Shown in pieces: positions 2,676 to 33,127 of a DNA stretch of 43,856 nucleotides. Positions within the stretch are counted from its first letter, which is position 1; each line of letters opens with the position of its first letter. Both the position numbers and the translations under genes were made by a program. The notes beneath the pieces were generated by a model. It searched no databases, was not told the origin of the DNA, and saw nothing but the letters and a program-made list of their open reading frames with translations. The stretch is from a virus (lineage: Duplodnaviria; Caudoviricetes), in IMG/VR virus record IMGVR_UViG_3300049982_000052, positions 1-43,856 of that record. One strand, given 5' to 3'.

Positions 2676-2808
2676 GAGGCGCCTGCGGGGTGTAAGGCGG
2701 GCGCAGCGCGGAGCAGGTACGGTCGTGCCAGACACGACCACCGCATGACGCACAAGGTGAGCACTCGGACGCGGCCTTGAGAAGGATGCGAAGCCAGAAG
2801 TTAGCCAT
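2668..2808 (-). CDS. Small Cys-containing hypothetical protein
   Basis: MANFWLRILL... with GGAG RBS; overlaps its neighbours. Confidence 0.5.
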   Translation of the reverse strand: MANFWLRILLKAASECSPCASCGGRVWHDRTCSALRPPYTPQAPRE

Positions 2809-3355
2809 TGGTTGTCTCCTGTTCGGTGTAGGGGGTGGCAAGGGGTACGAAGCGGCCAGGAATCTCGACGCCAGCAAGGCGGGCAGCCTCAGCAGACCCG
2901 TAGGCCACAAGCACGGACGGGGCACCCGAGTTCATGTCGGCGCGCTGACCGTTGCGGTAGTGGAACGTCAGTCGGCCCTTGAGGAACAGCAGCGCCGAGG
3001 CTCGGGGCCATACATGGCTGAACCACAACATGGTCTCGGTGCGGGCGAAGATGCACGCCAGCCCATTGCGGTGCTCAGCAAGTCGATGCAGCCATTTGCC
3101 CGCGTGGGCATAGGGCGGATTGAGCCAGACGCGCCCATGCCACGGCTGAGACAGGCCGTCATCCTCGATCGTGTAGTGCTTCGTCGCCGTGTTCCACGGT
3201 CGGGTGATCGGACTGCAGGGATCGAGGTCGAATGTCCCGAGTGCCTCAATCAGCCAGGGTGGGGTGAGCCACTCGTCAGTTCCACCGATGGCGCTCTGGT
3301 GAGAACCCATCGCGCGACGGTCGGTGCCCTCGTGGCCGAATAGGTCCACGCTCAT
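2801..3355 (-). CDS. Phage Dam-like DNA N6-adenine methyltransferase
   Basis: DEWLTP, FDLDPC, DGLSQPW, WLNPPY and ARTET motifs. Confidence 0.9.
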   Translation of the reverse strand: MSVDLFGHEGTDRRAMGSHQSAIGGTDEWLTPPWLIEALGTFDLDPCSPITRPWNTATKHYTIEDDGLSQPWHGRVWLNPPYAHAGKWLHRLAEHRNGLACIFARTETMLWFSHVWPRASALLFLKGRLTFHYRNGQRADMNSGAPSVLVAYGSAEAARLAGVEIPGRFVPLATPYTEQETTNG

Positions 3356-3579
3356 TTTGAGTCTCCGAGATCCTTCAGGCGGTAGTAGTTCTCGCCTTTA
3401 TGGCTGATCACGTCCAAGTCGGCGGAGATAAAGGTCTCGGGACCCAGAACCATCGCATCGCCACTCGCGTGCGGGTATTCGGGCAGTGGAGGTGCGGCGG
3501 CGGTCCAAGACATCGAGTCCGTCGACCCGTCCCACTCATTCAGCACGGTGTCGATTTGATCGACCACTGGCTCATTCAT
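3352..3579 (-). CDS. Hypothetical protein
   Basis: ATGA-coupled ORF. Confidence 0.6.
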   Translation of the reverse strand: MNEPVVDQIDTVLNEWDGSTDSMSWTAAAPPLPEYPHASGDAMVLGPETFISADLDVISHKGENYYRLKDLGDSK

Positions 3580-3722
3580 TCGGTCTCCTCGGTGTAGGGG
3601 CCTGCGTAGTCAGCGGCCAGGTCGTTCAGGTGCGCTGCGAGCTCCGGATCGAACGCCAGCAGACGGCCAGCGGCGTCACGCAGGATGTCCTTGGCTACCG
3701 GGGCGAGGATCTCGAAGGTCAT
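3576..3722 (-). CDS. Hypothetical protein (48 aa)
   Basis: MTFEILAPV..., ATGA-coupled to the helicase stop. Confidence 0.55.
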   Translation of the reverse strand: MTFEILAPVAKDILRDAAGRLLAFDPELAAHLNDLAADYAGPYTEETE

Positions 3723-4929
3723 GCGAACTCCCTCTGGGTGCGGAGCCAGTCCTCGTCGCTGGCCTTCGGGTCGATCGGGGTCCATGGCCACAACCCGCCC
3801 CGCTTGATCCGCTGCGGCCAGTTGCGCTCGTCGCGGTCGCCACGCCACGCGACCATGTCCACATCGCCGACCTCGTTCCAGCGGAGGCCGTAGCCGAACT
3901 CGGGCCAGCCCATCAATGCCGCCGAGCCGCGGGGACGCATGTTGCGCTCGTCGCCCTTCGTGGTGGCGTGGCCGGCATGCGCCTCCAGTACCAGCGTGAT
4001 CCCGCGGGCCCGCAGCGAGTCCAGTGCCGAGATGACAGGGGCCACGTGGTCGTCGGTCTGCAATGCCCTCGGGGCGAGCTTGTACAGCGGGCCGATCACC
4101 AGCAGGTCGGGCTGGGTGGCATCGAGGACGCGATTGACCCATGACAGGTCCTTGTCCTTGACGATGTCGATTCCGCCCGGGCGGCAGTCGATCGACACCC
4201 GGTCGGACGGGTCCTTGCCCTGCGTCTTGGCCTGCAGCCACATCGCGTGGAGTTGGCGCTTCACGTGCCGCTCCGTGTTTTCGAGGTCGATGATGTGCGC
4301 CCGGATCGGCTGCATCGGGTCGCGGGTGAAGGGGTGGATTCCTGCGGCGCCCATGAGTGCGAGCTGCCGCAGGAAGACGCTTTTCCCAGGCCCTCCTCCC
4401 CGGTGATCACCAGTCGGTCCATGCGTTCCAGCAGCTGCGGTATGACCCAGTCGTAGGGCTCCTCGGGCTTGCTCATCAACTCACCGAGGGTCTGGGTCTC
4501 GATGTCCGGTGCGCCCAAGTCGCGGATCCTGGTGAGGTTGTTGACCGCCTCCGACACAAGCGACTGCGGGTCAGTCTCGAGGTCCTCGGCGCGTTGGCGC
4601 ATCCGGATCGCTTGGGCGATCACCTCACGCCGGCGCGCGAATCCCCGAACCGTGGAGGCGTGGTGCTCTACCGAGTCCGGGACGGCGGGGTTGGTGACGA
4701 TCGCCAGGTGTACGCCCATCAGGTGCTTGTTGCCGTTCAGAGCCACCTGGACCGCCATGGCGTCCGTGGGCTTGCCTTCGGCCTTCAACTCGCGCAGAAC
4801 GGCCCACAGGCGCTGGTGGGACATGTTTGCGAAGTCCGTGGAGGTGAGGATCGCGGTCGCGCGCTCCAGTGCCAGGGGTGACTGGTAGCAGCAGGACAGG
4901 ACGGACTGCTCAGCGAGGTCATCGTTCAT
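3719..4929 (-). CDS. DnaB-like replicative helicase (N-terminal DnaB domain plus RecA/AAA_25-type domain), joined by a -1 frameshift at 4381-4387
   Basis: N-part has AEQSVL..DF...HQRLW. Walker A GEEGLGKS is restored only by a -1 shift. C-part has IDLEN, DLLVIGP, LEAHAGH and RPRGSAALMGWPE. About 403 aa when joined. Confidence 0.85.
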
Positions 4930-5576
4930 CCCGCCTCCCCAAAATCGAGCACGCCTTGGCTGAGACGGCTAGCGATGAGGTCGCAATAGCGCTCTTCGAG
5001 CTCAACCCCGATCACCTTGCGCCCCATCGCCTTCGCAGCAACGAGGGTCGTACCGCTGCCAGCGAACGGGTCGGCTACGACGCCGTCGGTCCATTCGATC
5101 AATTGCTCCATCAGGTAAGGCGGCTTGGCATGGGGGTGCTCGTTCAGGTAGCGCGCCTTACCTCCATCTGTCGCGAGCACGGACGATCGCAAGGGCGGGC
5201 GCGCGGGCCAGTTCCCCATCAGGAAGATCAGCTCGGTGTCCAGGCGGTAGCCGGTTGTGCTACCGACGATCCCGGCGTCTACCGGCTTCCTCCAGATAAG
5301 GACCTGCTTGTGTGGCGGGAACGGTGCGCGCCAGGAACCGAAGACCACGGCAGGGCGCGGACCCCACATGCTGAGAATTGTGTCGCGGCAGGTGGTGTCC
5401 TGGTCGTTGATGATGCCTTTGTGCGCGTATGACTTAGCGCGCCTGTTGGTGCCCTTAGTCCAGCCGATGCCGTACGGCGGATCCGTGACAAGCACGTCGG
5501 CAGCCAGCCACTCCGTGACTTCGCGGCAATCGCCGTGGTAGAGCGTGACCGACTCGTCTTCGTAGTAGGGCTTCAC
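4926..5576 (-). CDS. DNA N4/N6 methyltransferase (beta class)
   Basis: LYHGDC, TDPPY, HPHAKP, DPFAGSGTT and GVEL motifs. Confidence 0.92.
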   Translation of the reverse strand: MKPYYEDESVTLYHGDCREVTEWLAADVLVTDPPYGIGWTKGTNRRAKSYAHKGIINDQDTTCRDTILSMWGPRPAVVFGSWRAPFPPHKQVLIWRKPVDAGIVGSTTGYRLDTELIFLMGNWPARPPLRSSVLATDGGKARYLNEHPHAKPPYLMEQLIEWTDGVVADPFAGSGTTLVAAKAMGRKVIGVELEERYCDLIASRLSQGVLDFGEAG

Positions 5577-6622
5577 TGGAACCTCGCCCGTACGTCGTCC
5601 TTGGCGTACCCGTTCCGCCGACCGTCAGGAGACTGGCCGCCCGGGATGAGCGTGAGCGGCTGGTCGTCCCACCGCTCGCCGTTCAGCCAGGTCGAAGGGT
5701 GAGCGGTGAACTTCAGGTCCGGCTTGGATGCGGCGAGAGCGACCGCAGCCGCGATGAGCGTCTGTGGGTCAGTCTTCTTGACCGCCTTGTCCCAAGCCTT
5801 GCGAGCGTTTCCCTTGTCGGTCTTCCGCGGATAGGCCTGCCAGAACTCATCGAACAGGGGATCCGATGAGGTCGCGCGCGCGGTAGTCCTTTTCCTCTTC
5901 CCTTCCTCTTCCTTTCCCTTCCCTTCCGGCGGTGAACCAGACACGGAATCGCTCACTGATCCATTCACTGAATCAGCCACTGAATGGGGCTGTGAGTCGC
6001 TCACGCCGAGCAGACGGGCCACGCTGCGCGGGATCCTGAACGATTCAATGGGCCGGTCACCCCGTCCCTTATTGCAGGAGATGTGGCTGTTGCGGATGTT
6101 CCCCGGGTGGTCCGAGCCACCCTTGGAGCGGGGGACGACGTGATCCGGGCTCGGATCCAGATCGCCGGTACCCTTCGTGGGGCCGACAATGAGCGCCGGC
6201 GTCTCGTTGGTCGGATACCCACAGAGGTGGCAGATGTAGCCGTCCCGCTTGGCGTACAGGAGCCTTATCGCAGACAACTGCAGGCTCGGAGGAGGCAGCT
6301 TGCTCGGCTGCGGGCGGTTGACACGCTGATGCTTGTGGAAGTTGACGATCATCCCGAGCTGCTGCTGTGACTTACCCCCGCGGTACGGGTAGACCAACCC
6401 CGAAGTCACCAACTCGTTCATCAACTCGTTCACGCGAGTCGCGCCCATATCCTCGTCGTACAGGAACGCCTGGGCTTTGACGTAAGCCACGGTCCAGCGC
6501 AGCAGACCCTCGTCGTCTGCCATGTTGAAGGTCGCGATGAAGAGCAGCCGGGCATCTCTTGAGAGTGTGCCGATCGTCTCGTCTTCCCAGAACTCAGGCT
6601 TCACGGTCCTGATACGTGCCAT
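5573..6622 (-). CDS. Replication initiator protein with an inserted HNH domain
   Basis: N-terminal MARIRTVKPEFW..ADDEG; central RDGYICHLC..DHVVP..GG..N..HISCN..RG; C-terminal FDEFWQAYPRK..HPSTWLNGERWDD. Confidence 0.85.
   Translation of the reverse strand: MARIRTVKPEFWEDETIGTLSRDARLLFIATFNMADDEGLLRWTVAYVKAQAFLYDEDMGATRVNELMNELVTSGLVYPYRGGKSQQQLGMIVNFHKHQRVNRPQPSKLPPPSLQLSAIRLLYAKRDGYICHLCGYPTNETPALIVGPTKGTGDLDPSPDHVVPRSKGGSDHPGNIRNSHISCNKGRGDRPIESFRIPRSVARLLGVSDSQPHSVADSVNGSVSDSVSGSPPEGKGKEEEGKRKRTTARATSSDPLFDEFWQAYPRKTDKGNARKAWDKAVKKTDPQTLIAAAVALAASKPDLKFTAHPSTWLNGERWDDQPLTLIPGGQSPDGRRNGYAKDDVRARFQ
5891..6004. repeat. Probable replication origin: 12-bp iterons plus a polypyrimidine tract inside the initiator gene
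   Basis: Tandem units cacggaatcgct, cactgatccatt, cactgaatcagc, cactgaatgggg, ctgtgagtcgct (5942-6001), next to a C/T-only tract at 5891-5927. Confidence 0.65.
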
Positions 6623-6785
6623 CGGTCACCTCCTTCGTAGTTGGGAACTGCAGGACTGTCGCGTCTCTGGGGACAGCGGTGACACCACGACGCAGCAGCA
6701 TCTGCCGCTTGGCGCGCTGAAGTGCTCGAGCACGCTCGTAGAGGCGCCGGCCGGGGTTGGCCATGGGTGAGGAAGGGTCGGTCAC
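6594..6785 (-). CDS. Hypothetical protein
   Basis: GTGA-coupled to the methyltransferase stop. Confidence 0.5.
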   Translation of the reverse strand: MTDPSSPMANPGRRLYERARALQRAKRQMLLRRGVTAVPRDATVLQFPTTKEVTDGTYQDREA

Positions 6786-7534
6786 GCGACCTCCAACAGC
6801 GAGGCGTGGTCCACGACCAAGCGGCCGATGAGTTCAGCCACCGGGGGGACTACGGCATTTCCGAGGGCGTGGAGACCGGGAGCAGCCAGTTGCTTGGGAA
6901 CCCCATGAGCCACGCGACCCACGTCTGGTTCAGGTAGCCACCCGTATCGCCGCGCAAGGCCACTCGTTGCTCGAGAGCCGGCGCGTCCACTCTCCACTGC
7001 GGCCTGTAGGTGCAGAGGCTGTTCGCGATCGACGCCCTGGGGGTAGGCCACAAGGAACAGCCGCTCACGTGTGTGTGGCGCGCCCATGGCGCACGCTGAT
7101 AGCACTGACCATTCCGCATCGAACCCGAGCTCGGCCAGGTCTCCGAGTATCCGGCCGAAGGCGTGTGCATATCCAAGGAGAGCTGCGACGTTCTCCATGA
7201 CGACGTAGCGGGGTCGTACTGCGCGAACGACTCGTTCCATCGCGGGCCACAGCCAACGGGGGTCGTCCACACCTCGCCCCAGACCTGCGGTCGAAACCGG
7301 CTGGCAAGGCGGTCCGCCGGAAACAACGACAACTGGAGGTCGGGGTTCGCTGAGCCACCAGTCGACAGCGGTGGTGACGTCGTCATGCTTGGGCACCTCC
7401 GGCCAATGGGTTTCTAGTACCGAGCGGCAGTAGTCGTCGAGCTCTACCTGCCCAACGGTGGTGATGCCGGCGCACTCGAGACCCAACTCGAGGCCGCCGA
7501 TGCCTGCGAACAGGCTCAGGTTCGTGAGGCTCAT
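6782..7534 (-). CDS. C5-cytosine DNA methyltransferase, large subunit
   Basis: Motif I LFAGIGG, IV GGPPCQ, VI MENV, VIII HTRERLF, X LGNAVVP. No evident motif IX in this frame. Confidence 0.92.
   Translation of the reverse strand: MSLTNLSLFAGIGGLELGLECAGITTVGQVELDDYCRSVLETHWPEVPKHDDVTTAVDWWLSEPRPPVVVVSGGPPCQPVSTAGLGRGVDDPRWLWPAMERVVRAVRPRYVVMENVAALLGYAHAFGRILGDLAELGFDAEWSVLSACAMGAPHTRERLFLVAYPQGVDREQPLHLQAAVESGRAGSRATSGLARRYGWLPEPDVGRVAHGVPKQLAAPGLHALGNAVVPPVAELIGRLVVDHASLLEVA
6850..7386 (-). CDS. Nested alternative-frame C5 methyltransferase small subunit (TRD/motif IX-like)
   Basis: Same-strand overlapping ORF with LWPTPRAS and LNQTWVAWLMGFPSNW. Confidence 0.7.
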   Translation of the reverse strand: MTTSPPLSTGGSANPDLQLSLFPADRLASRFRPQVWGEVWTTPVGCGPRWNESFAQYDPATSSWRTSQLSLDMHTPSAGYSETWPSSGSMRNGQCYQRAPWARHTHVSGCSLWPTPRASIANSLCTYRPQWRVDAPALEQRVALRGDTGGYLNQTWVAWLMGFPSNWLLPVSTPSEMP

Positions 7535-7926
7535 GCGGCACCTTCCCCGGTGTAGGGGATCCAGCCGCCTTCGTTGTCGAGCAGCACCCACCCGCGGTAC
7601 GTGAGCAGGGGCTCCTTGGATGGGTCGATGTCAGGGTTGTTCATCGGCAGGACCCACCCCTCGTCCTTGCCGCGCTCCCGGTCCTCGTTCTCTACGAGGT
7701 TGTGGCATGAGCCAGGCGTGGTGGCGGACCCGCACATCAGTGCCAGGTTGGCCGGCGACCAGATGCGGTCCTCGGCGCTACCGCCGCGTCCCCTGGCGAT
7801 CCGGTGCTGTACCGAGGCGAGCTTGTACAGCACGTTGGCGCCGCACCGCTGGCAGGTGTTCTGGTCGCGCTCGAGGACGATCCTTCTGGCGGCATCCTTG
7901 ACCGCCCTGGTGGCCTTGGGGCTCAT
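7531..7926 (-). CDS. HNH endonuclease
   Basis: RDQNTCQRCG..QHRIARGRGG..NLALMCG..CH..E. Confidence 0.8.
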   Translation of the reverse strand: MSPKATRAVKDAARRIVLERDQNTCQRCGANVLYKLASVQHRIARGRGGSAEDRIWSPANLALMCGSATTPGSCHNLVENEDRERGKDEGWVLPMNNPDIDPSKEPLLTYRGWVLLDNEGGWIPYTGEGAA

Positions 7927-9538: not shown

Positions 9539-10125
9539 TCGGACTCACCGCCGTCGTGTTCGCGGTCGACCTCGTCGTTGCCCATCGAGACCTGCTGAGC
9601 AACGCCGTCCTGCACGTCCTCGGGCTTGTCTTCGCCTTCCTTCGGCTGCGGCAGGATGAACGTCCCGCGCACCAGCGCCTCCAGTTGGCCCTTGTTGTAG
9701 AGGCTCAGACCGAACTGGTCCCCGAGGTTGATCGCGGTCCGCTTCTTCGCCAGCGACAGCGCCGACTTGTAGGCCAGGTCGTGGGCATCACCGCGGATCT
9801 GGTTCTGCGCCGTTGCCGTGGAGCCGTCCTCGTAGTGGCAGACCTCGTTGCCGTGCTCGTCGCGGATCGTCAGGCGCAGCAGCGACCGGTAGCAGACGTC
9901 CCACTTGCCGGTGAACTCACCCTTCTGGTTGGTCCGCTCCTGCTCGAACACCAACTCCACTTTCAGCACCTCGGTGTCGAATGAACCGAAACCGAAGATG
10001 CGGATCAGGTGAGCGGTGATGTCCTGCTGGCTGACGTGACTGTGGCCCTTGCCGTCCTGCAGGACCCGGTTCTGCTTGATCGGGGCCAGCAGTTGCAACG
10101 TCTGCTTGGCGTTGAACGCGCTCAT
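9535..10125 (-). CDS. Rad52/Rad22-family (Sak-like) single-strand annealing protein
   Basis: SHV..D...L.RIFGFG.F and HDLAYKSALS.A.KR.A.NLGDQFGLSLY motifs. Confidence 0.85.
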   Translation of the reverse strand: MSAFNAKQTLQLLAPIKQNRVLQDGKGHSHVSQQDITAHLIRIFGFGSFDTEVLKVELVFEQERTNQKGEFTGKWDVCYRSLLRLTIRDEHGNEVCHYEDGSTATAQNQIRGDAHDLAYKSALSLAKKRTAINLGDQFGLSLYNKGQLEALVRGTFILPQPKEGEDKPEDVQDGVAQQVSMGNDEVDREHDGGESE

Positions 10126-10457
10126 ATCTCAGTCCTTGCTGCTGTTAGTAAGTCAGGGTTCGTGCACTCGGGTGCGATCGGCTCGTACACCTGCGGCCGG
10201 TTGGTGCCGCGTTCCGCATGCGGGTCGTGGACCGACACCGCCACGAACACACCGCCGCGGCGTTTACGCCACAGGATCTTCGGCGGGTCCTTCCTGAGTT
10301 CCTTGTCCATCGCGGACTGGTACGCGTTCCTGCCGGACGGCGCGTCGCTCTGCCGCTGCCGGTTCGCTGCCGTGCACGGGTCGCACGGCTTCTCGTTGTT
10401 CCGCAGGTGTCTCGCGTAGGCGGCGTAGGTGCCGCACGGCTTCAGTGGCCTACTCAT
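10122..10457 (-). CDS. Hypothetical Zn-binding protein
   Basis: PCGTYAAYARH..EKPCDPC motif, familiar from actinophage WhiB-adjacent genes. Confidence 0.65.
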   Translation of the reverse strand: MSRPLKPCGTYAAYARHLRNNEKPCDPCTAANRQRQSDAPSGRNAYQSAMDKELRKDPPKILWRKRRGGVFVAVSVHDPHAERGTNRPQVYEPIAPECTNPDLLTAARTEI

Positions 10458-15607: not shown

Positions 15608-15952
15608 ATGAACGACTGGGGACGGCTGGGTTCCGTCGTCACGGGGGAACGTGTCCGCCGTGGCTACCGGAGTCGTTCGGCGTTCGCTCTTGCGTCCGGG
15701 CTGTCACTGTCGACACTGGACAATATCGAGCACGGGCGGAAACAGTCATACGATCCGGCCACCCTCGCTGCTTTGGAGCACGCGCTGGGGTGGGAACCCG
15801 GGTCTGTCGTGAGAGTGCTGCAGGGGATGGACCCGAAGCAACTGGAGGACTCCGACCTGTCCGCCTTGGTGGACGCCTGGCCGAAGCTTTCTCCTGGTGC
15901 GCGGAGGATGCTTCGGATCCTGGCTGCGGAGGCCGCTCGAGCCGAGGACTGA
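15608..15952 (+). CDS. XRE-family HTH transcriptional regulator
   Basis: W.RLG..V..ER..RG..SR..FA..SGLS..TL.NIE.G..TL..LE.ALGW.PGS. Confidence 0.85.
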   Translation: MNDWGRLGSVVTGERVRRGYRSRSAFALASGLSLSTLDNIEHGRKQSYDPATLAALEHALGWEPGSVVRVLQGMDPKQLEDSDLSALVDAWPKLSPGARRMLRILAAEAARAED

Positions 15953-15962
15953 CTGGTTCGTC

Positions 15963-17111
15963 ATGGCCCACGTCCGGCGGCTGAGGTCCGGGAAGTGGCA
16001 GGCGACGGTACGGCACCCTTCGGGACAGCGTTGGTCGAAGTCTGACCCGCTGAAGCGGGTGGTGCAGCAGTGGGCGGCCGATCAGGAGGCCGCGATCCGG
16101 CGTGGCGAGTTCGTGGATCCGTCAGCGGGGAAGCTGACGCTCACGGACTGGTGGGTGAAGTGGAACAAGACCCGCCGGATCGAGGCCGCGACCATGGACA
16201 AGAACGTGTCGTGGTGGCGTAACCACATCGAGCCCCGGTTCGGGTCTTGGCCGCTGTCGTCCCTGCAGAGCTGGGATATCGAGGAGTGGGTCACGGGCCT
16301 GACCGGGAGGGTGGGCGCGGAGACCGTAGCGTCGTCTCTGCGGCTGCTGACGCAGATGCTGTCTGCCGCGGTCAAGCACCGGCTGCTCGGGTCGAACCCT
16401 GCAGCGTTGGTGTCCGCGCCCACCCCGCCGAAGCACGTGGACCGGTTCCTCACCCGTGCCGAAGCCGACCAGCTGCTCGAGCAGTTCGACGGACAGGACC
16501 GGGTGTTCGTTGAGCTGCTGCTGTACTGCGGCCTCCGCTTCCAGGAGGCCGCAGGACTCAGGAGGTTCCGGGTTGACCTGCTACGCCGCCGGATCCAGAT
16601 CGCGAAGGTGCAGCCGCGCAGAGGCGCCGAGAAGAAGCCGAAGACGTCCGCCGGGACGAGGCAGGTGCCGTTGACCGACAGCCTCGTCATCCAGCTGTCA
16701 CAGCTGATCCCCGAACCGAACGACGAGTTGGTGTTCACCGCACCCCAGGCCGGCCGGATCCGGTACGACAACTGGATCCGCCGCGTCTGGTATCCCGCGC
16801 TGCGTGGAGCGCCTGCGGTCGAGGCCAAGCCTGCAGTGCGTGGCCGTGCCGCAACTCCAGCGGTCCCGGCTAGGCCAGGTGCGAATCTGGCAGCGCCAGA
16901 ACCGACCCCTCACGATCTGCGTCACACGTTCGGTTCGTGGCTAGGTGAGGCCGGTGTGCCACCTACGCAGATCGCGGCGTTGATGGGGCACGCCGGACTG
17001 CGGTCGGTCGAGCGGTACCTGCACGCGACGGAAGCACGGTTCGACCAGGCCAGGGTGGCGCTGGAGCGGCAGGAGAGCGGCGAAGCACCTTCCCATGGTG
17101 CAATGCCTTGA
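15963..17111 (+). CDS. int: Tyrosine integrase
   Basis: N-terminal arm-binding domain; GLRFQE (R), PKT (K), HDLRHT, LMGH and YLH catalytic motifs. Confidence 0.95.
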   Translation: MAHVRRLRSGKWQATVRHPSGQRWSKSDPLKRVVQQWAADQEAAIRRGEFVDPSAGKLTLTDWWVKWNKTRRIEAATMDKNVSWWRNHIEPRFGSWPLSSLQSWDIEEWVTGLTGRVGAETVASSLRLLTQMLSAAVKHRLLGSNPAALVSAPTPPKHVDRFLTRAEADQLLEQFDGQDRVFVELLLYCGLRFQEAAGLRRFRVDLLRRRIQIAKVQPRRGAEKKPKTSAGTRQVPLTDSLVIQLSQLIPEPNDELVFTAPQAGRIRYDNWIRRVWYPALRGAPAVEAKPAVRGRAATPAVPARPGANLAAPEPTPHDLRHTFGSWLGEAGVPPTQIAALMGHAGLRSVERYLHATEARFDQARVALERQESGEAPSHGAMP

Positions 17112-17303
17112 CACACTGTGACACAGCTGGCAGACTCAACCCAAGTCGAGAGGCTAGCGTGACCTGCAGGGTGATCTTCCCTTACAAGGAAGATGTCGGG
17201 GGTTCGATCCCCTCTTCGCCCACCTCAGGTTTCACGCTCAGATCCCTCTCGAACCACCAGTTCGGGAGGGATCTTTCACATGTCGGAGCGGCAGGAGAGC
17301 GGC
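17063..17303 (+). repeat. 19-bp direct repeat flanking attP (probable integrase arm-type sites)
   Basis: ggagcggcaggagagcggc at 17063-17081 and 17285-17303, each a tandem GAGCGGC with 11-bp period. Confidence 0.75.
17175..17224 (+). other. attP core: 3' half of tRNA-Val(TAC)
   Basis: Anticodon arm tcttcc-CTTACAA-ggaaga, T arm ggggg-TTCGATC-ccctc, acceptor 3' strand ttcgccc-acc. No 5' half upstream; lies immediately downstream of int. Confidence 0.88.
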
Positions 17304-17795
17304 AAGACGCTGCGGCAGTTGCGCGAACAGGCGCGGCTGAGTCAGGAGGATCTGGCCGCGAAGGCTCAGGTCTCGCGCGCCAGCATCCAGAACTGGGAGG
17401 CCAACCGCACCGCCCCACGTCGCGCTGAGATGAACCGCCTTGCATCGGCGCTGGGGCTGACGGATCTAGCGCTTCGGGCCCGCCTAGTGGAGAGCAATGA
17501 CGACGAGCCAGCGCGAGAGGCCAACTTCGCACGAAATCACCAGGCGCAGTATGTCGAGAAGATCGCCGCGAAGCTGCGGGACATGGCCGAAGAGGTCGAG
17601 CGAGCAGGAAGCCCCCGAGCTGACGGCACCCCATATCCGCCTGGCGTCATCGCGGGCAGGGTCTCGCACATCATCGCGTGGGGTGTCGCGAACCTGAACG
17701 TCGAGTCGCTGGTTACGAACATCGACGACATCTACGCGGTCGACGCACTCCTGGCCGAAGAAGCCACATCTACCGAGGGGGACACCCAAGCATGA
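17280..17795 (+). CDS. XRE-family HTH protein
   Basis: LRQLREQARLSQEDLAAKAQVSRASIQNWEANRTAP; GGGAGG RBS. Confidence 0.85.
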   Translation: MSERQESGKTLRQLREQARLSQEDLAAKAQVSRASIQNWEANRTAPRRAEMNRLASALGLTDLALRARLVESNDDEPAREANFARNHQAQYVEKIAAKLRDMAEEVERAGSPRADGTPYPPGVIAGRVSHIIAWGVANLNVESLVTNIDDIYAVDALLAEEATSTEGDTQA

Positions 17796-29400: not shown

Positions 29401-32376
29401 CTAGTACCCCCTTCCGAGAGCTGATCGCGCCATCTCGAGACTGACCTTGCGCCCGTCCAGTTGCACCTGCGGCGGGCTGTTCTGCATTGCTCCGGCGACG
29501 ACGATCCCGATCGCCTGGATGTCGTCTGGGTGGAGCCGTAGATGGTTCTCATGGGTCTCGTGGCTCTGGTGCGTGACATGCGCCTGGTGTGCCACGTGGC
29601 GCTGGTGCAGTTCGCTGCGGAGCCGTCGGCTCCAGTTGCGCATGTTGTTCGCTGGCTTGGCGGGGACCACCATCTCGTCCTTGTGCACCATCGCCAGCTG
29701 ATCGGCGAGGATCCGCCAGGCGCCGTCGGCGTACGAACCGATGCCGAGCTGGGCGACCAGGTCCTTGCCTTGGTACGCCTCTCCTCGGGGGTCGAGCAGG
29801 TCGAACGGCAGATCCCCGCCCTCGACCTTGCCGCCCTTGGCGAACCCCTTCACCTTGGCCCTGTTGGTGAACAGCCCGTCATAGGCGCCGCGGGCGCTGC
29901 CACCCACCCGGACACCGACACCCCCGGCGGACTCGAAGTTGACACCGTTGATCGTTGCCGCCGTGTGGCCGGGGTTGCCGTTGAACCAGCCCACCATGAA
30001 CCGTCCGGTGCCGGAGGCCATATCGGACCACGGCATGGAGCCCGTCGCCCCGAGGCGGTGATACGGGCTCCTGCCGCGGGAGACGTTGATAAGGGCGCTG
30101 ATGAACCCGGAGCAGTCGTAGCCCTTTGGTCCGACGCCGCCCCAAATGTAGGGCTTGCCGACTTGGGAGCGTCCCCACTTCATCGTTCCGAGAAGGCCGC
30201 CGAGTTCGTTCGCTATCGCCTGCGCGGCGGGGCGAACCATCGCCCGTGCGGACGCGGCAAGAGAGTTCGCGAACGGGCCAGGGTCCGGCGTGCGTGGATA
30301 GACTCCGACGTTCACAGCGCCGCCCTTGGCATAGCCGCGGAACTGGCTGCGCATCGACTCCATGGCCTGATGGCCACCGGCGTTGGCTACCTCCCGTGCG
30401 GTCCAGACGTGTTCACCGTTGGACAACATCGCCGGGATGGAGTCCGATGTTCCGGACCCCGCTCCGCGTACGGCGCCGCCAACCGCAAAGGCGTTCTTGA
30501 GGCGCGGGTCGTTCGCGTTCTTGTTGTTGATATTCGCAGCGTTCAGCTTCGCCGTGACTGTAATCTCTTGGTCGGTGATCCCGGCAAGCTTGTTGTTGAC
30601 GTTGTCGCGGAACTTGCCGAACTCGGTCGCAGCCGCCTTGAGCTTCGGGCCTAGATTTGGCACCCAGCCGAACGCCTTCGACGCTCCGGTCAGGATGTCG
30701 CCGACGAAGCCGAGGAACTTCCCGATCACGAATGCGATCGCGGCGCGGGCCGGCTCCTTGATCGCATTGAACCCGGCTGCGACGACACCGCCGAACTTCG
30801 TCGCCAGCCCCCACGCGGTGGTGAGCGCAACCCCGAAGCCCTTCAGGATCGGCTTCGCGTAGTAGTTCCACCACAGCGAGAAGACGCCGATGACGATGTC
30901 GATCGCGGCCTTGACCAGCGGCGCGAAGATCTGCGCTGCTGCCCTGATCCCATTGAACGCACCCTGCAGCACCTCGCGGAACTTGGCGCTGTGCTTGTAG
31001 GCGTAGATCAGTCCCGCGACCAGAGCGGCGATCCCGATCACGACCAGACCGATAGGGTTCGCCGACAGGACCACGTTGAGGATCGCCTGCGCCGCCGACC
31101 ACGCCTTGATCGCGAGACTCACGGCCTGGAACACGATGAGTCCGCCGGCGAGGATCGCGACAAACGGGACGAGGAAGTCCTTGTTCTTGGACAGGGCCGT
31201 TGCCAGCTCCACCACCTTCGGCACAACCTTGGCGCCGACGAACGACGCGAAGTCCTGCAGCCGTGGGAGGACTTCGGTCTTGAAGAACCCGAACACATCC
31301 TTCACCGCGGGCGCGAACGTAGTCACCAGGTTCCCCGCCAGCGTCGCCACGGTCGGAATGACTCGACTGGTGACGAACCCCGCGAACTCGAGCAGACGAG
31401 GGAGGATCTGGTCACGGAAGAACCCAGCGAACTGGACCAGCCGCGGGATCACGTTGGCCTGGATGAATCCACCGAAGTCGCGCAGCTTCGGGAGGACCTT
31501 CGCTGCGAACACGTCGGCGAACGCGGACACCTTCGGGACCACGGTGTCACCGACGAACGTCGCGAACCTGTCCACCACCGGCAGCAGGAACCCACCGAAC
31601 TGCTCGGACAGGTTCCCGGCGATCGTCTTCAGCCTGACCAACGGATCCGATGCAGCCGCAGCGGCGCCACCGAACTCCTTGCCGACCTCACCGAGAATGA
31701 TCTTCTGCGCATCGAGGGTCTTACCCGAATCGACCAGAGTCTTGATCTGGTCCTTCTGCTGCTGGGTGAACGACACGCCCACCTTCGACAGCGCCGTGAC
31801 GCCCTTCACCGGGTCGTTCAGCGCCTTGCCCAGCTGGATGTTCGCGGCCTTCAGCCCGTTGGCGTCGACGATGCCGCCGTTCATCGCCGCAGCCATGTCT
31901 ACAGCTGCCTGCGTGGCACGGTTGAAGACGTCGTTGCCCTTGCCGGTCTCGTTCCGGACGTTCGTGAACGTGGCCAGCAGGTTCTCGCCGGACTGGATCG
32001 CCTCGTCGTCGGCGCCGGTCTTGTTGCTGATCGCGGTCGCGAGATCACCGAGCTGGCCGGCGGTGATGCCCGCCACCCCGCCGGTGGACTTGATCACCGC
32101 GGCGCTGATCCGGCCGACCTTTGCCGACTCGCGCGCATCCTCGATGAACCCGGTGAGGAACTGTACGCCCTTGATCGCGGCGAACGCCCCCACGAACAGG
32201 CCGGCCGAATGCTTCACGATCCCGCCGAAGGCACCGTTGAACCCGACGCCGAAGCGGCCCGCGACCCGTGAGCCTTCCTTGCGGGTGTCGATCGAGGTGA
32301 GCTTCTTCTTCACCTCGGGACCGAAGCGATCCATGTCCGGCTTCACCGTCACGAAGACTTCCGCGAGTGAGGTCAC
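29401..32376 (-). CDS. Tape measure protein with a C-terminal NlpC/P60 domain
   Basis: 991 aa, Ala/Gly-rich with aromatic-periodic repeats; GSGTSDSIPAMLSNGE; GKPYIWGG..GYDCSG..GHT. Confidence 0.93.
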   Translation of the reverse strand: MTSLAEVFVTVKPDMDRFGPEVKKKLTSIDTRKEGSRVAGRFGVGFNGAFGGIVKHSAGLFVGAFAAIKGVQFLTGFIEDARESAKVGRISAAVIKSTGGVAGITAGQLGDLATAISNKTGADDEAIQSGENLLATFTNVRNETGKGNDVFNRATQAAVDMAAAMNGGIVDANGLKAANIQLGKALNDPVKGVTALSKVGVSFTQQQKDQIKTLVDSGKTLDAQKIILGEVGKEFGGAAAAASDPLVRLKTIAGNLSEQFGGFLLPVVDRFATFVGDTVVPKVSAFADVFAAKVLPKLRDFGGFIQANVIPRLVQFAGFFRDQILPRLLEFAGFVTSRVIPTVATLAGNLVTTFAPAVKDVFGFFKTEVLPRLQDFASFVGAKVVPKVVELATALSKNKDFLVPFVAILAGGLIVFQAVSLAIKAWSAAQAILNVVLSANPIGLVVIGIAALVAGLIYAYKHSAKFREVLQGAFNGIRAAAQIFAPLVKAAIDIVIGVFSLWWNYYAKPILKGFGVALTTAWGLATKFGGVVAAGFNAIKEPARAAIAFVIGKFLGFVGDILTGASKAFGWVPNLGPKLKAAATEFGKFRDNVNNKLAGITDQEITVTAKLNAANINNKNANDPRLKNAFAVGGAVRGAGSGTSDSIPAMLSNGEHVWTAREVANAGGHQAMESMRSQFRGYAKGGAVNVGVYPRTPDPGPFANSLAASARAMVRPAAQAIANELGGLLGTMKWGRSQVGKPYIWGGVGPKGYDCSGFISALINVSRGRSPYHRLGATGSMPWSDMASGTGRFMVGWFNGNPGHTAATINGVNFESAGGVGVRVGGSARGAYDGLFTNRAKVKGFAKGGKVEGGDLPFDLLDPRGEAYQGKDLVAQLGIGSYADGAWRILADQLAMVHKDEMVVPAKPANNMRNWSRRLRSELHQRHVAHQAHVTHQSHETHENHLRLHPDDIQAIGIVVAGAMQNSPPQVQLDGRKVSLEMARSALGRGY

Positions 32377-32725
32377 GGTCCGACCCCCAATGCGGCTAGA
32401 AGTTGAGCCTTTTCACGGTCGACCGGCTCCGGTTCGGACAGGAGCCACTCGTCGAACTTCTCGGTCAACTCGCCAGGAAGGAGCTCGCCGCCACCGGAGA
32501 TGACGGCGAGCTCGAGCGCCTGCGTGTGTTCGATCTGGATCGCGTAGACCACATCGCACAGATCGGGCAGGCTCAGCCCGTCTGCTGCCGGTAGACCGCC
32601 ATCGCGAGATCCGGGCGGCCCTGTGACTTCAAGCGGCGCACCACCTCGAGCGAGGATGAGTCGGCCGCGGAGATAGGAGCGGTTTGCTGCGGCCCAGCCG
32701 AGGAGTCGGAGGGCCGCGAAGTAGG
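32373..32725 (-). CDS. Tail assembly chaperone -1 frame extension (gpT-like)
   Basis: -1 frame reads PYFAALRLLGW..LSLPDLCDVVY..FDEWL from CGCCCTAC to a stop overlapping the TMP start. Confidence 0.7.
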
Positions 32726-33127
32726 GCGCTGCGACAGGATCGTCATGACCCGCTGGATGACACCGAACAGCTCAGCCGCATCGTCGGCGCGCTCCCTGGT
32801 GGCGTGGGCCTCGAACTCGTCCCAGCCGCCGTACACGGTCACCTGACTGGTCGCCTCCGGAGGGAGGCCGTTGGCTTCGTCGCGGGTGATCTCGCGGCCC
32901 TGGAACACGAACACGGGCTCGTCGGCGATGGCCTGGCGGAGCATGTCGTACATCGCCGCCATGCCCTCCATGTCGTCGGAGTCCAGCCCGGACTTCGCGG
33001 CGTGCGCGAACCGCATGAGCGGCATGAGGCCGATCTTGGTCGCGATCGCGAAGTCCTTGCCGAGGAACTCGACGCTGCGCACCTCCACCGGTTCGGGCGG
33101 TAGCTCCGCGACGATCTCGACCGGCAT
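32573..33127 (-). CDS. Tail assembly chaperone (gpG-like)
   Basis: Between major tail and tape measure; TGATG-coupled start. Confidence 0.8.
   Translation of the reverse strand: MPVEIVAELPPEPVEVRSVEFLGKDFAIATKIGLMPLMRFAHAAKSGLDSDDMEGMAAMYDMLRQAIADEPVFVFQGREITRDEANGLPPEATSQVTVYGGWDEFEAHATRERADDAAELFGVIQRVMTILSQRPTSRPSDSSAGPQQTAPISAADSSSLEVVRRLKSQGRPDLAMAVYRQQTG

What the first reader, a model, noticed from the sequence alone, without database searches (positions are those of the whole stretch)
4339..4401. dnaX-style -1 frameshift cassette inside the Walker A of the replicative helicase
Seen on the - strand: GGGGAGGAGGG-CCT-G GGA AAA-GCGTC-TTCCTGCGGC(17 nt)GCCGCAGGAA. The heptamer (4387-4381) is in the correct X XXY YYZ phase. 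A perfect 10-bp stem starts 5 nt downstream (4375-4339) and an SD-like GGAGG lies just upstream. Frame 0 gives a 222-aa N-domain-only protein; a -1 slip gives GEEGLGKSVF and a ~403-aa helicase. Known: SD + heptamer + stem-loop is the E. coli dnaX/IS911 architecture, and GGGAAAA is a common actinophage tail-chaperone slip site. Inference: the phage makes a minor full helicase and an abundant ATPase-less N-domain. I do not know a described case in a phage DnaB-like gene. Caveat: the SD is partly dictated by Gly-Glu-Glu-Gly codons, and a 1-nt homopolymer error gives the same ORF pattern.
Basis: partly seen in the sequence, partly recalled or inferred. Interest (0 to 1): 0.88.

Follow-up and report, generated by a model that had tools for sequence, protein, structure and literature searches.

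The report
Programmed frameshift in phage replicative helicase
In a group of soil phages, the DNA-unwinding enzyme gene is broken by one base inside its ATP-binding loop, and ribosomes most likely slip back one base there on purpose, which would be a new use of a known trick to ration a replication enzyme.

Summary
A temperate soil actinophage's DnaB-N/AAA_25 helicase gene is split by one base inside Walker A at G GGA AAA (4387-4381), with a 15-bp hairpin 5 nt downstream. The same split occurs in 3 other contigs read as DNA and in 30 distinct 222-aa frame-0 proteins (12 clusters); 35 sister clusters are contiguous. Both halves, and the overlap read in the -1 frame only, are under purifying selection. 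Heptamer, stem and SD codons stay fixed at dS 0.4-1.2. Eight distant clusters (27-42% identity) leave frame at the same Lys|Ser bond (seen as protein only), where others carry inteins. Best reading (0.87): programmed -1 ribosomal frameshifting makes the 403-aa helicase; unshifted ribosomes make an N-domain product. The signals are dnaX/IS911-like, but the outcome is IS3/lambda G-T-like. A second split-specific signal, GGAG plus a GTGA overlap at the frame-0 stop, suggests re-initiation. No RNA, ribosome or protein data exist; product ratio and purpose are unknown. Ten literature searches found no described case. This scan earlier noted a similar Walker A slip in a jumbo-phage SF2 helicase (another superfamily; not checked here).

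The parts
4261..4929 (-). Frame-0 ORF, 222 aa: DnaB N-terminal domain, linker, first strand and P-loop up to the Walker A Lys (aa 1-183), then a 39-aa out-of-frame tail
   Evidence: PF00772 E 8e-13; 30 distinct homologues of exactly 222 aa
3719..4387 (-). -1 frame: RecA-like AAA_25 ATPase domain from the Walker A G-K-S to the stop
   Evidence: PF13481 E 9e-11; dN/dS 0.015-0.14 among split loci
4381..4387 (-). Slippery heptamer G GGA AAA (Gly-Lys of Walker A)
   Evidence: identical in 4 of 4 split DNA loci; 0 of 79 distinct contiguous IMG/VR loci use GGA AAA for Gly-Lys
4395..4401 (-). Conserved SD-like GGGGAGG, ending 7 nt before the heptamer
   Evidence: GGG GAG in 4 of 4 split loci, GGC in 13 of 13 close contiguous loci; effect not tested
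4376..4380 (-). 5-nt spacer
4339..4375 (-). Stimulatory hairpin: 10-bp outer stem plus 5-bp inner stem, 6-nt loop
   Evidence: -23.4 to -25.9 kcal/mol in 4 split loci versus -11.9 to -21.6 in 13 close contiguous loci; 0 of 79 IMG/VR loci reach -23.4; no double compensatory change
4271..4274 (-). Second SD-like GGAG (ACG GAG), 6 nt before the GTG at 4264
   Evidence: ACG decoded in 30 of 30 split proteins versus 2 of 13 contiguous loci
4261..4264 (-). GTGA overlap: frame-0 stop over a -1 frame GTG; candidate re-initiation site for a 181-aa C-terminal piece
   Evidence: the tail ends here in 30 of 30 split proteins; the GTG is also present in 13 of 13 contiguous loci; inferred
3576..3722 (-). 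48-aa ORF whose ATG overlaps the helicase stop (ATGA); context
4926..5576 (-). N6/N4 DNA methylase, overlapping the helicase start; context
5573..6622 (-). Replication initiator with an HNH segment; context

Best explanation
A programmed -1 ribosomal frameshift controls production of this phage's replicative helicase. Ribosomes start at 4929 and translate the DnaB N-domain. At G GGA AAA, with tRNA-Gly and tRNA-Lys on two rare codons, the hairpin 5 nt downstream stalls them, possibly helped by the SD-like GGAGG. A fraction re-pair one base back on GGG AAA, read the Walker A Ser next and complete the 403-aa helicase. The rest finish a 222-aa protein that has the N-domain but no working ATPase. 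They stop at a GTGA overlap where some may re-initiate in the -1 frame. SHOWN: the split, its conservation, selection on both halves and on the -1 reading of the overlap, and fixed cassette codons. INFERRED: that ribosomes shift, the product ratio, re-initiation, and the purpose. The most likely purpose is to ration active helicase in a temperate phage, possibly with the N-domain product acting as a competitor.
For: (1) Recurrence: 3 of 20 genome/metagenome loci with the junction are split, all with GGGAAAA. A gap-free contig comes from another study. There are 30 distinct 222-aa products in 12 clusters, down to 68% N-domain identity. (2) Selection among 4 split loci (6 non-independent pairs): dN/dS 0.09-0.25 for the N part, 0.015-0.14 for the C part, 0.05-0.35 for the overlap read in -1, and 0.85-2.1 or undefined for the overlap read in frame 0. 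In 11 cluster representatives, 88 frame-0 tail changes need only 22 changes in the -1 protein; the null gives 53.8+-5.1, minimum 40 of 300. (3) Residues from the Ser onward are conserved before any shared start codon: the Val codon is GTG in only 14 of 30. (4) Cassette codons: 6 of 6 synonymous-capable codons in the SD/heptamer stretch are identical in 4 loci, against 31 of 122 in the far regions. The stem codon GCA is decoded in 29 of 30 split proteins versus 3 of 13 contiguous loci. (5) Eight distant clusters leave frame at the same bond, and each tail decodes to the canonical post-P-loop helix better than all 200 shuffles. (6) G_GGA_AAA is used by IS elements (PMC4066793) and is cited for mycobacteriophage TM4 (PMC4626039).
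Against: There is no RNA, ribosome-profiling or peptide evidence. The stem shows no double compensatory change, only U-A to U-G and G-C to G-U. Both arms are partly dictated by protein, and some contiguous relatives keep -19 to -21.6 kcal/mol stems. Stem-region codons are only 5 of 10 identical (loop included). The SD spacing is shorter than the 9-14 nt optimum. G_GGA_AAA was called inefficient in E. coli in early work (PMC4066793 introduction). Most relatives do without the split: 0 of 79 distinct IMG/VR loci, 35 contiguous clusters, and no frameshift-type split among 54 GenBank phage records. Only 4 split loci were read as DNA; the other 26 close proteins and the 8 distant ones are protein only, and 6 of the 8 are single sequences. 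Helicase activity itself rests on annotation and fold.
Confidence: 0.87

Rival explanations
1. Transcriptional slippage: RNA polymerase adds one base in the G3A4 run, and ordinary translation of those mRNAs gives the helicase.
For: It gives the same ORF pattern and the same selection signal. Slippage replaces frameshifting in some IS elements and in Thermus dnaX (PMC5009743).
Against: The run has only four A; runs implicated in slippage are A(n>7) or T(n>8) (PMC3711429). A conserved hairpin at 5 nt, tRNA re-pairing phase and an upstream SD-like element are ribosomal signals.
Confidence: 0.04
2. Two separately initiated polypeptides (N part and C part) assemble without any frameshift.
For: There is a split-specific GGAG plus GTGA overlap. 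Gene callers list C-terminal ORFs of 181, 197, 198 and 218 aa.
Against: A start at 4264 omits the Walker A Ser, the following helix and the strand with the conserved acidic residues (model of a contiguous relative). Yet those codons are selected in the -1 frame. No start codon is shared ahead of them, and frame 0 has Ala or Val in place of the P-loop Ser.
Confidence: 0.03
3. A dead or dying gene: one inherited deletion, with the phage relying on the host helicase.
For: Monophyly of the close split group is not rejected (AU p 0.054). Temperate phages can borrow host helicases (recalled). Scattered random breaks exist in this family: 16 of 24 broken distant proteins are not of the GK|A/V type.
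Against: The C half has dN/dS 0.015-0.14 at dS 0.37-1.2 and no stops in the 4 split loci read as DNA. The other genes scanned match intact phage families.
Confidence: 0.03
4. Assembly or homopolymer error.
For: A one-base loss in a G3A4 run gives this pattern; no raw reads were seen.
Against: The same split occurs in independent JGI, ENA and Logan assemblies, linked to split-specific codons up to 110 nt away.
Confidence: 0.01

Closest known systems
IS3-family / IS911 OrfA-OrfAB -1 frameshift
   Same: An upstream ORF is fused to a -1 frame catalytic domain; the shift makes the active enzyme, and the short product may regulate (PMC5009743). Signals are SD, heptamer and stem; G_GGA_AAA occurs in these elements (PMC4066793). 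A coupled downstream product (OrfB) is recalled for IS3, not read here.
   Different: The gene is a phage replicative helicase, not a transposase. The shift site is the catalytic P-loop itself, not a linker. Close contiguous alleles coexist.
E. coli dnaX tau/gamma
   Same: A replisome gene with an SD-like element, a heptamer and a simple stem-loop.
   Different: In E. coli the shift makes the short product at about 50% on A AAA AAG (PMC5009743); here it makes the long one. A reversed dnaX arrangement is mentioned for a few bacteria in the same passage. The protein families are unrelated.
Lambda G/GT tail-assembly-chaperone frameshift
   Same: A phage -1 shift giving a longer product; GGGAAAA is cited for mycobacteriophage TM4 (PMC4626039).
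   Different: That is a morphogenesis gene, with the shift near the end of the short ORF. 2397 of 2476 annotated actinophage frameshifts are tail chaperones and 79 hypothetical (PMC10885494). This phage's own putative chaperone region has no XXXYYYZ heptamer.
Magnesium chelatase frameshift clusters (GeneTack)
   Same: An ATPase gene with split and fused forms, and a conserved slippery site (PMC5009743; PMC3711429).
   Different: A cellular gene with an A_AAA_AAR motif.
P-loop inteins of DnaB (M. smegmatis DnaBi1)
   Same: They interrupt the helicase at the P-loop serine and gate its activity after transcription (PMC6195587). 12 of 146 distant members of this family were classed as having an intein-like insert right after the Walker A Lys; LAGLIDADG domains were found in 2 of 3 scanned.
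   Different: Protein splicing rather than recoding.
Jumbo-phage SF2 helicase Walker A slip noted earlier in this scan (e1-1992082 and repeats)
   Same: G GGA AAA/G in the Walker A codons plus a hairpin, as those notes describe it.
   Different: A different helicase superfamily and a Pseudomonas jumbo phage; AI notes, not checked here.

Membership tests
Bacterial -1 programmed ribosomal frameshift (dnaX/IS3 type) | X XXY YYZ heptamer in phase, in the overlap of two ORFs | tested here: met
Bacterial -1 programmed ribosomal frameshift (dnaX/IS3 type) | Site conserved in diverged homologues | tested here: met
   4 of 4 split DNA loci at dS 0.37-1.2; 30 split proteins read G-K then A/V
Bacterial -1 programmed ribosomal frameshift (dnaX/IS3 type) | 3' stimulatory structure a few nt downstream, beyond chance | tested here: met
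   supported by stability and synonymous conservation
Bacterial -1 programmed ribosomal frameshift (dnaX/IS3 type) | Covariation in the stem | tested here: inconclusive
   0 of 24 predicted pairs show a double change in 4 sequences; only one-sided changes that keep pairing
Bacterial -1 programmed ribosomal frameshift (dnaX/IS3 type) | 5' SD-like stimulator at working distance | tested here: inconclusive
   split-specific GGAGG, 7 nt before the heptamer: inside the 6-17 nt search range of PMC4066793, outside the 9-14 nt of PMC5009743
Bacterial -1 programmed ribosomal frameshift (dnaX/IS3 type) | Both frames under purifying selection | tested here: met
Bacterial -1 programmed ribosomal frameshift (dnaX/IS3 type) | Transframe protein made; shift is ribosomal | not testable with these tools
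   no RNA holder listed; needs reporter, MS or profiling
E. coli dnaX tau/gamma | dnaX gene, A AAA AAG, shift gives the short product | tested here: not met
   different gene, motif and outcome
Phage tail-chaperone G/GT frameshift | Located between major tail and tape measure genes | tested here: not met
   it lies in the replication module
DnaB-like (SF4) replicative helicase | DnaB N-terminal domain | tested here: met
   PF00772; 14 PDB DnaB-type matches
DnaB-like (SF4) replicative helicase | RecA-like C-terminal ATPase in DnaB architecture | tested here: met
   model of contiguous relative P0040 (pLDDT 72.9); top Foldseek hits are DnaB, E 3e-15, TM 0.3-0.5. Pfam assigns AAA_25, not DnaB_C
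DnaB-like (SF4) replicative helicase | Canonical Walker B aspartate | tested here: inconclusive
   the strand I take for Walker B (assignment recalled) ends in an invariant G-P in all 35 contiguous relatives: a family trait, not a result of the split
DnaB-like (SF4) replicative helicase | Hexamer, ATPase and unwinding activity | not testable with these tools

The most novel reading that the evidence does not exclude
The Walker A Lys|Ser bond of phage DnaB-N/AAA_25 helicases is a recurrent post-transcriptional valve. At least nine lineages have independently turned the Gly-Lys codons into a slippery site, at the bond where sister lineages carry inteins. In this lineage the cassette yields three products, as recalled for IS3: an N-domain decoy, a transframe helicase and a re-initiated C-terminal piece. 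It is exchanged as a switchable allele that sets replication strength in temperate phages.
Probability: 0.3. Interest if true: 0.87.

Novelty: new variant of a known kind. Interest (0 to 1): 0.74.

Why it matters
Described phage frameshifts are almost all in virion assembly genes. A conserved shift that gates the catalytic loop of a replicative helicase would extend recoding to control of phage DNA replication. Split and contiguous alleles sit on 97-98% identical N-domains, which gives a natural pair for asking what the shift is for. It would also supply a compact actinobacterial frameshift cassette, and it means that a set of phage helicases now called as truncated or hypothetical are misannotated.

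Tried and rejected
The P0180 query gave 2 contiguous loci. 0 of 400 sampled genomes of G001's phylum matched. So no DNA was obtained for the eight distant splits. No RNA holder was listed; this is no evidence either way. Runs X2 and X20 did not cover the site. Rfam gave 0 matches. The promoter/terminator scan found nothing above chance. Complex prediction of the N-domain with the initiator tail was not available, so binding is untested. Several origins for the close split group: the tree needs 6 changes, 3 forced by starred branches, but the AU test does not reject one clade (p 0.054), so this is left open. The nearer GGAGG was rejected as the stimulator (not conserved, 4 nt away). GTG in the spacer was rejected as a shared start (14 of 30). 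P0287, P0291 and P0331 were rejected as same-site splits. P0014, P0015, P0017, P0018 (fragments or other breaks), P0016 (contiguous, 355 aa) and P0028 (178-aa fragment) were left out of the split count. Loci lacking the junction (L017, L029, L040) were left out. The relay idea is only weakly supported: contiguous relatives also overlap the next gene and carry an SD there. A paper search on dominant-negative DnaB fragments gave nothing usable.

Full report
WHAT IS THERE. The window is a whole virus record of 43,856 bases. It has terminase, portal, capsid, tape measure, endolysin, integrase, repressor and a WhiB-like gene, so it is a temperate tailed phage, most likely of an actinobacterium (inference from WhiB, 66% GC and the hosts of relatives). 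Its best sequencing-run holder is a soil metagenome. In the replication module (initiator, methylase, helicase) the helicase gene is split. Frame 0 gives 222 aa with a DnaB N-domain and ends its homology at the Walker A Lys. The -1 frame continues with the Walker A Ser and the AAA_25 ATPase domain. The join is G GGA AAA at 4387-4381, followed after 5 nt by a 15-bp hairpin of -25.3 kcal/mol. Only 0.3% of 3000 synonymous recodings fold as well, and the Gly and Lys codons used are rare in this phage.

IT IS NOT AN ERROR. Of 18 IMG/VR loci, the 17 with the junction are contiguous. Of 22 genome and metagenome loci, 20 hold the junction and 3 are split with the same heptamer: L020, L025 and L027. 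Run X1 (possibly the source) matches exactly at depth 15. A contig from another study spans the site with 21 substitutions and no gap; 18 of the 21 are listed and none falls in SD, heptamer or outer stem. A protein search with the frame-0 product gave 17 hits, 12 of them exactly 222 aa including our own. Opening 7 of these clusters brought the total to 30 distinct 222-aa proteins, all with the same type of tail. C-terminal ORFs are on record with matching longest-contig lengths for eight of them (linked by length only). 35 clusters of 399-415 aa are contiguous.

IT IS NOT A DEAD GENE, AND THE -1 FRAME IS READ FROM THE HEPTAMER. Among the four split loci, dS is 0.37-1.2, dN/dS is 0.09-0.25 in the N part and 0.015-0.14 in codons 42-138 of the C part. 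In the overlap it is 0.05-0.35 read in -1 but 0.85-2.1 (one pair undefined) read in frame 0 (simple counting, pairs not independent). In 11 cluster representatives, 88 frame-0 tail changes need only 22 changes in the -1 protein, against 53.8+-5.1 for unselected change. The residues just after the heptamer precede any shared start codon. In the model of a contiguous relative they form the helix and strand that complete the ATP site; that model's best matches are DnaB helicases.

THE CASSETTE IS SELECTED. All 6 synonymous-capable codons of the SD/heptamer stretch are identical in the four loci, against 31 of 122 in the far regions; the stem region gives 5 of 10. All four split hairpins (-23.4 to -25.9) are more stable than those of all 13 close contiguous loci (-11.9 to -21.6) and all 79 distinct loci from the best 80 of 186 IMG/VR family hits plus two more (these sets overlap). 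The stem codon GCA is decoded in 29 of 30 split proteins versus 3 of 13 contiguous loci. Against this, there is no double compensatory change, and the protein sequence already favours a partial stem. The conserved SD-like element is GGAGG 4399-4395 (GGG in 4 of 4 split, GGC in 13 of 13 contiguous). It lies 7 nt before the heptamer, shorter than the 9-14 nt reported for -1 stimulation (PMC5009743), so it may stimulate weakly or damp the shift.

A SECOND SIGNAL. All 30 split proteins stop at the same TGA, 41 codons on, whereas 8 of 13 contiguous loci would stop earlier in that frame. Met followed by an A-starting codon, which creates an early stop, occurs in 12 of 34 contiguous proteins and 0 of 30 split ones. 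The stop overlaps a -1 frame GTG (GTGA), and GGAG lies 6 nt before it. The ACG codon that creates this GGAG is decoded in 30 of 30 split proteins versus 2 of 13 contiguous loci, while another Thr codon in the same tail varies; ACC is the commoner codon here. The nominal Fisher p of 2e-5 overstates the case because the sequences are related, and the GTG itself is shared with contiguous genes. I infer re-initiation of unshifted ribosomes to make a 181-aa piece. That piece lacks the P-loop, so its use may be to keep ribosomes on the mRNA for downstream genes; this is weakly supported. An SD before a terminator is described as likely important for coupling (PMC5009743).

HISTORY AND REACH. On an N-domain tree of 30 split and 35 contiguous proteins, the split forms nest within the family and need 6 changes, 3 forced, but one clade is not rejected (AU p 0.054). 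Split and contiguous alleles occur on 97-98% identical N-domains, pointing to exchange or reversion. A profile search of 50%-identity representatives (best 150 of 1907 listed; 146 new) gave 99 complete, 11 edge fragments, 12 with an intein-like insert after the Lys, and 24 broken. Eight of the 24 break exactly after G-K with Ala or Val next, which in the -1 frame means AAA then an AGY serine. The rest are scattered, apart from one broken intein start. These eight are 27-42% identical to our N part, and each tail decodes to the canonical helix better than all 200 shuffles. The profile included the tail, which favours such hits, though not that exact position. Two of the eight have a second member. 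Their DNA could not be obtained, so their heptamers and stems are unseen.

MECHANISM. The most likely mechanism (0.87) is tandem tRNA slippage on G GGA AAA, stimulated by the hairpin, giving the 403-aa helicase, while unshifted ribosomes give the 222-aa N-domain protein. The ratio is unknown. G_GGA_AAA was called inefficient in E. coli in early work yet is listed among the more efficient IS motifs (PMC4066793); nothing was found for actinobacterial ribosomes. The purpose is inferred by analogy with IS elements, where the shift level sets enzyme level and the short product can regulate (PMC5009743). Since most relatives are contiguous, the shift is a tuning device rather than a requirement of the family.

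COMPARISON WITH WHAT IS KNOWN. It works like an IS3/IS911 or lambda G/GT shift and carries dnaX-like signals, but it is not a member of those gene families. Ten full-text searches showed no described frameshift in a phage DnaB-like helicase; I saw listings and abstract openings for most hits. Passages only were read from PMC5009743 (first 300,000 of 449,034 characters held; no mention of DnaB or primase), PMC3711429 (no helicase or DnaB in the text or two supplements; supplementary file 1 not searchable), PMC4066793, PMC4626039, PMC7556043, PMC10885494 (no mention of helicase), PMC8008677, PMC13313380 and PMC6195587. Subscription journals are not covered. IS3's coupled OrfB is recalled. The 54 GenBank phage matches show one piece each, except one single CDS with an in-frame insert. 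Earlier notes of this scan report a similar Walker A slip in a jumbo-phage SF2 helicase, and one DnaB look-alike judged a plain mutation; none overlaps this family by sequence, and I did not test them.

VERDICT. The feature is real and conserved, and very probably a programmed -1 frameshift that gates a phage replicative helicase at its catalytic loop. It is a new variant of a known kind. Interest 0.74; 0.87 if convergence at this bond and a three-product regulatory design are confirmed (probability 0.3).

Noticed in passing
window 5576-5620 (-); L004, L025, L042, L043, L044: The initiator ends in a short peptide (ending DDVRARFQ) that is invariant across otherwise dissimilar initiator C-domains in relatives of this helicase. 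It may be a helicase-recruiting tail, or simply conserved ribosome-binding and crossover DNA.
   Followed up: partly
window 32372-33127 (-): Putative tail-chaperone G ORF (33127-32573) and a -1 frame T-like ORF ending at 32372, just before the tape measure gene, have no XXXYYYZ heptamer. The assignment rests on position only, and how T is made is unexplained.
   Followed up: partly
P0241, P0242, P0252, P0277, P0318, P0320, P0341, P0353, P0356, P0359, P0364, P0367, P0369: Distant family members carry intein-like inserts, most starting with Ala, right after the Walker A Lys (P0252 was classed as complete by the script). LAGLIDADG domains were found in 2 of 3 scanned.
   Followed up: partly
L026 and L028 versus P0031/P0032: Contiguous and split alleles share 97-98% identical N-domains, while split members differ from each other down to 68%: allele exchange or reversion.
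   Followed up: partly
window 2801-3355, 4926-5576, 6782-7591 (-): Three DNA methyltransferases (Dam-like, N6/N4, C5) in the replication module. One sits between initiator and helicase, which appear directly coupled in L020, L025 and L027.
   Followed up: no
window 5573-6622 (-), aa about 120-200: An HNH segment inside the replication initiator.
   Followed up: no
   Followed up: no
window 15897-17111, 17193-17795 (+), 10122-10457 (-): Tyrosine-type integrase family match, repressor and WhiB-like gene, pointing to a temperate phage of an actinobacterium.
   Followed up: no
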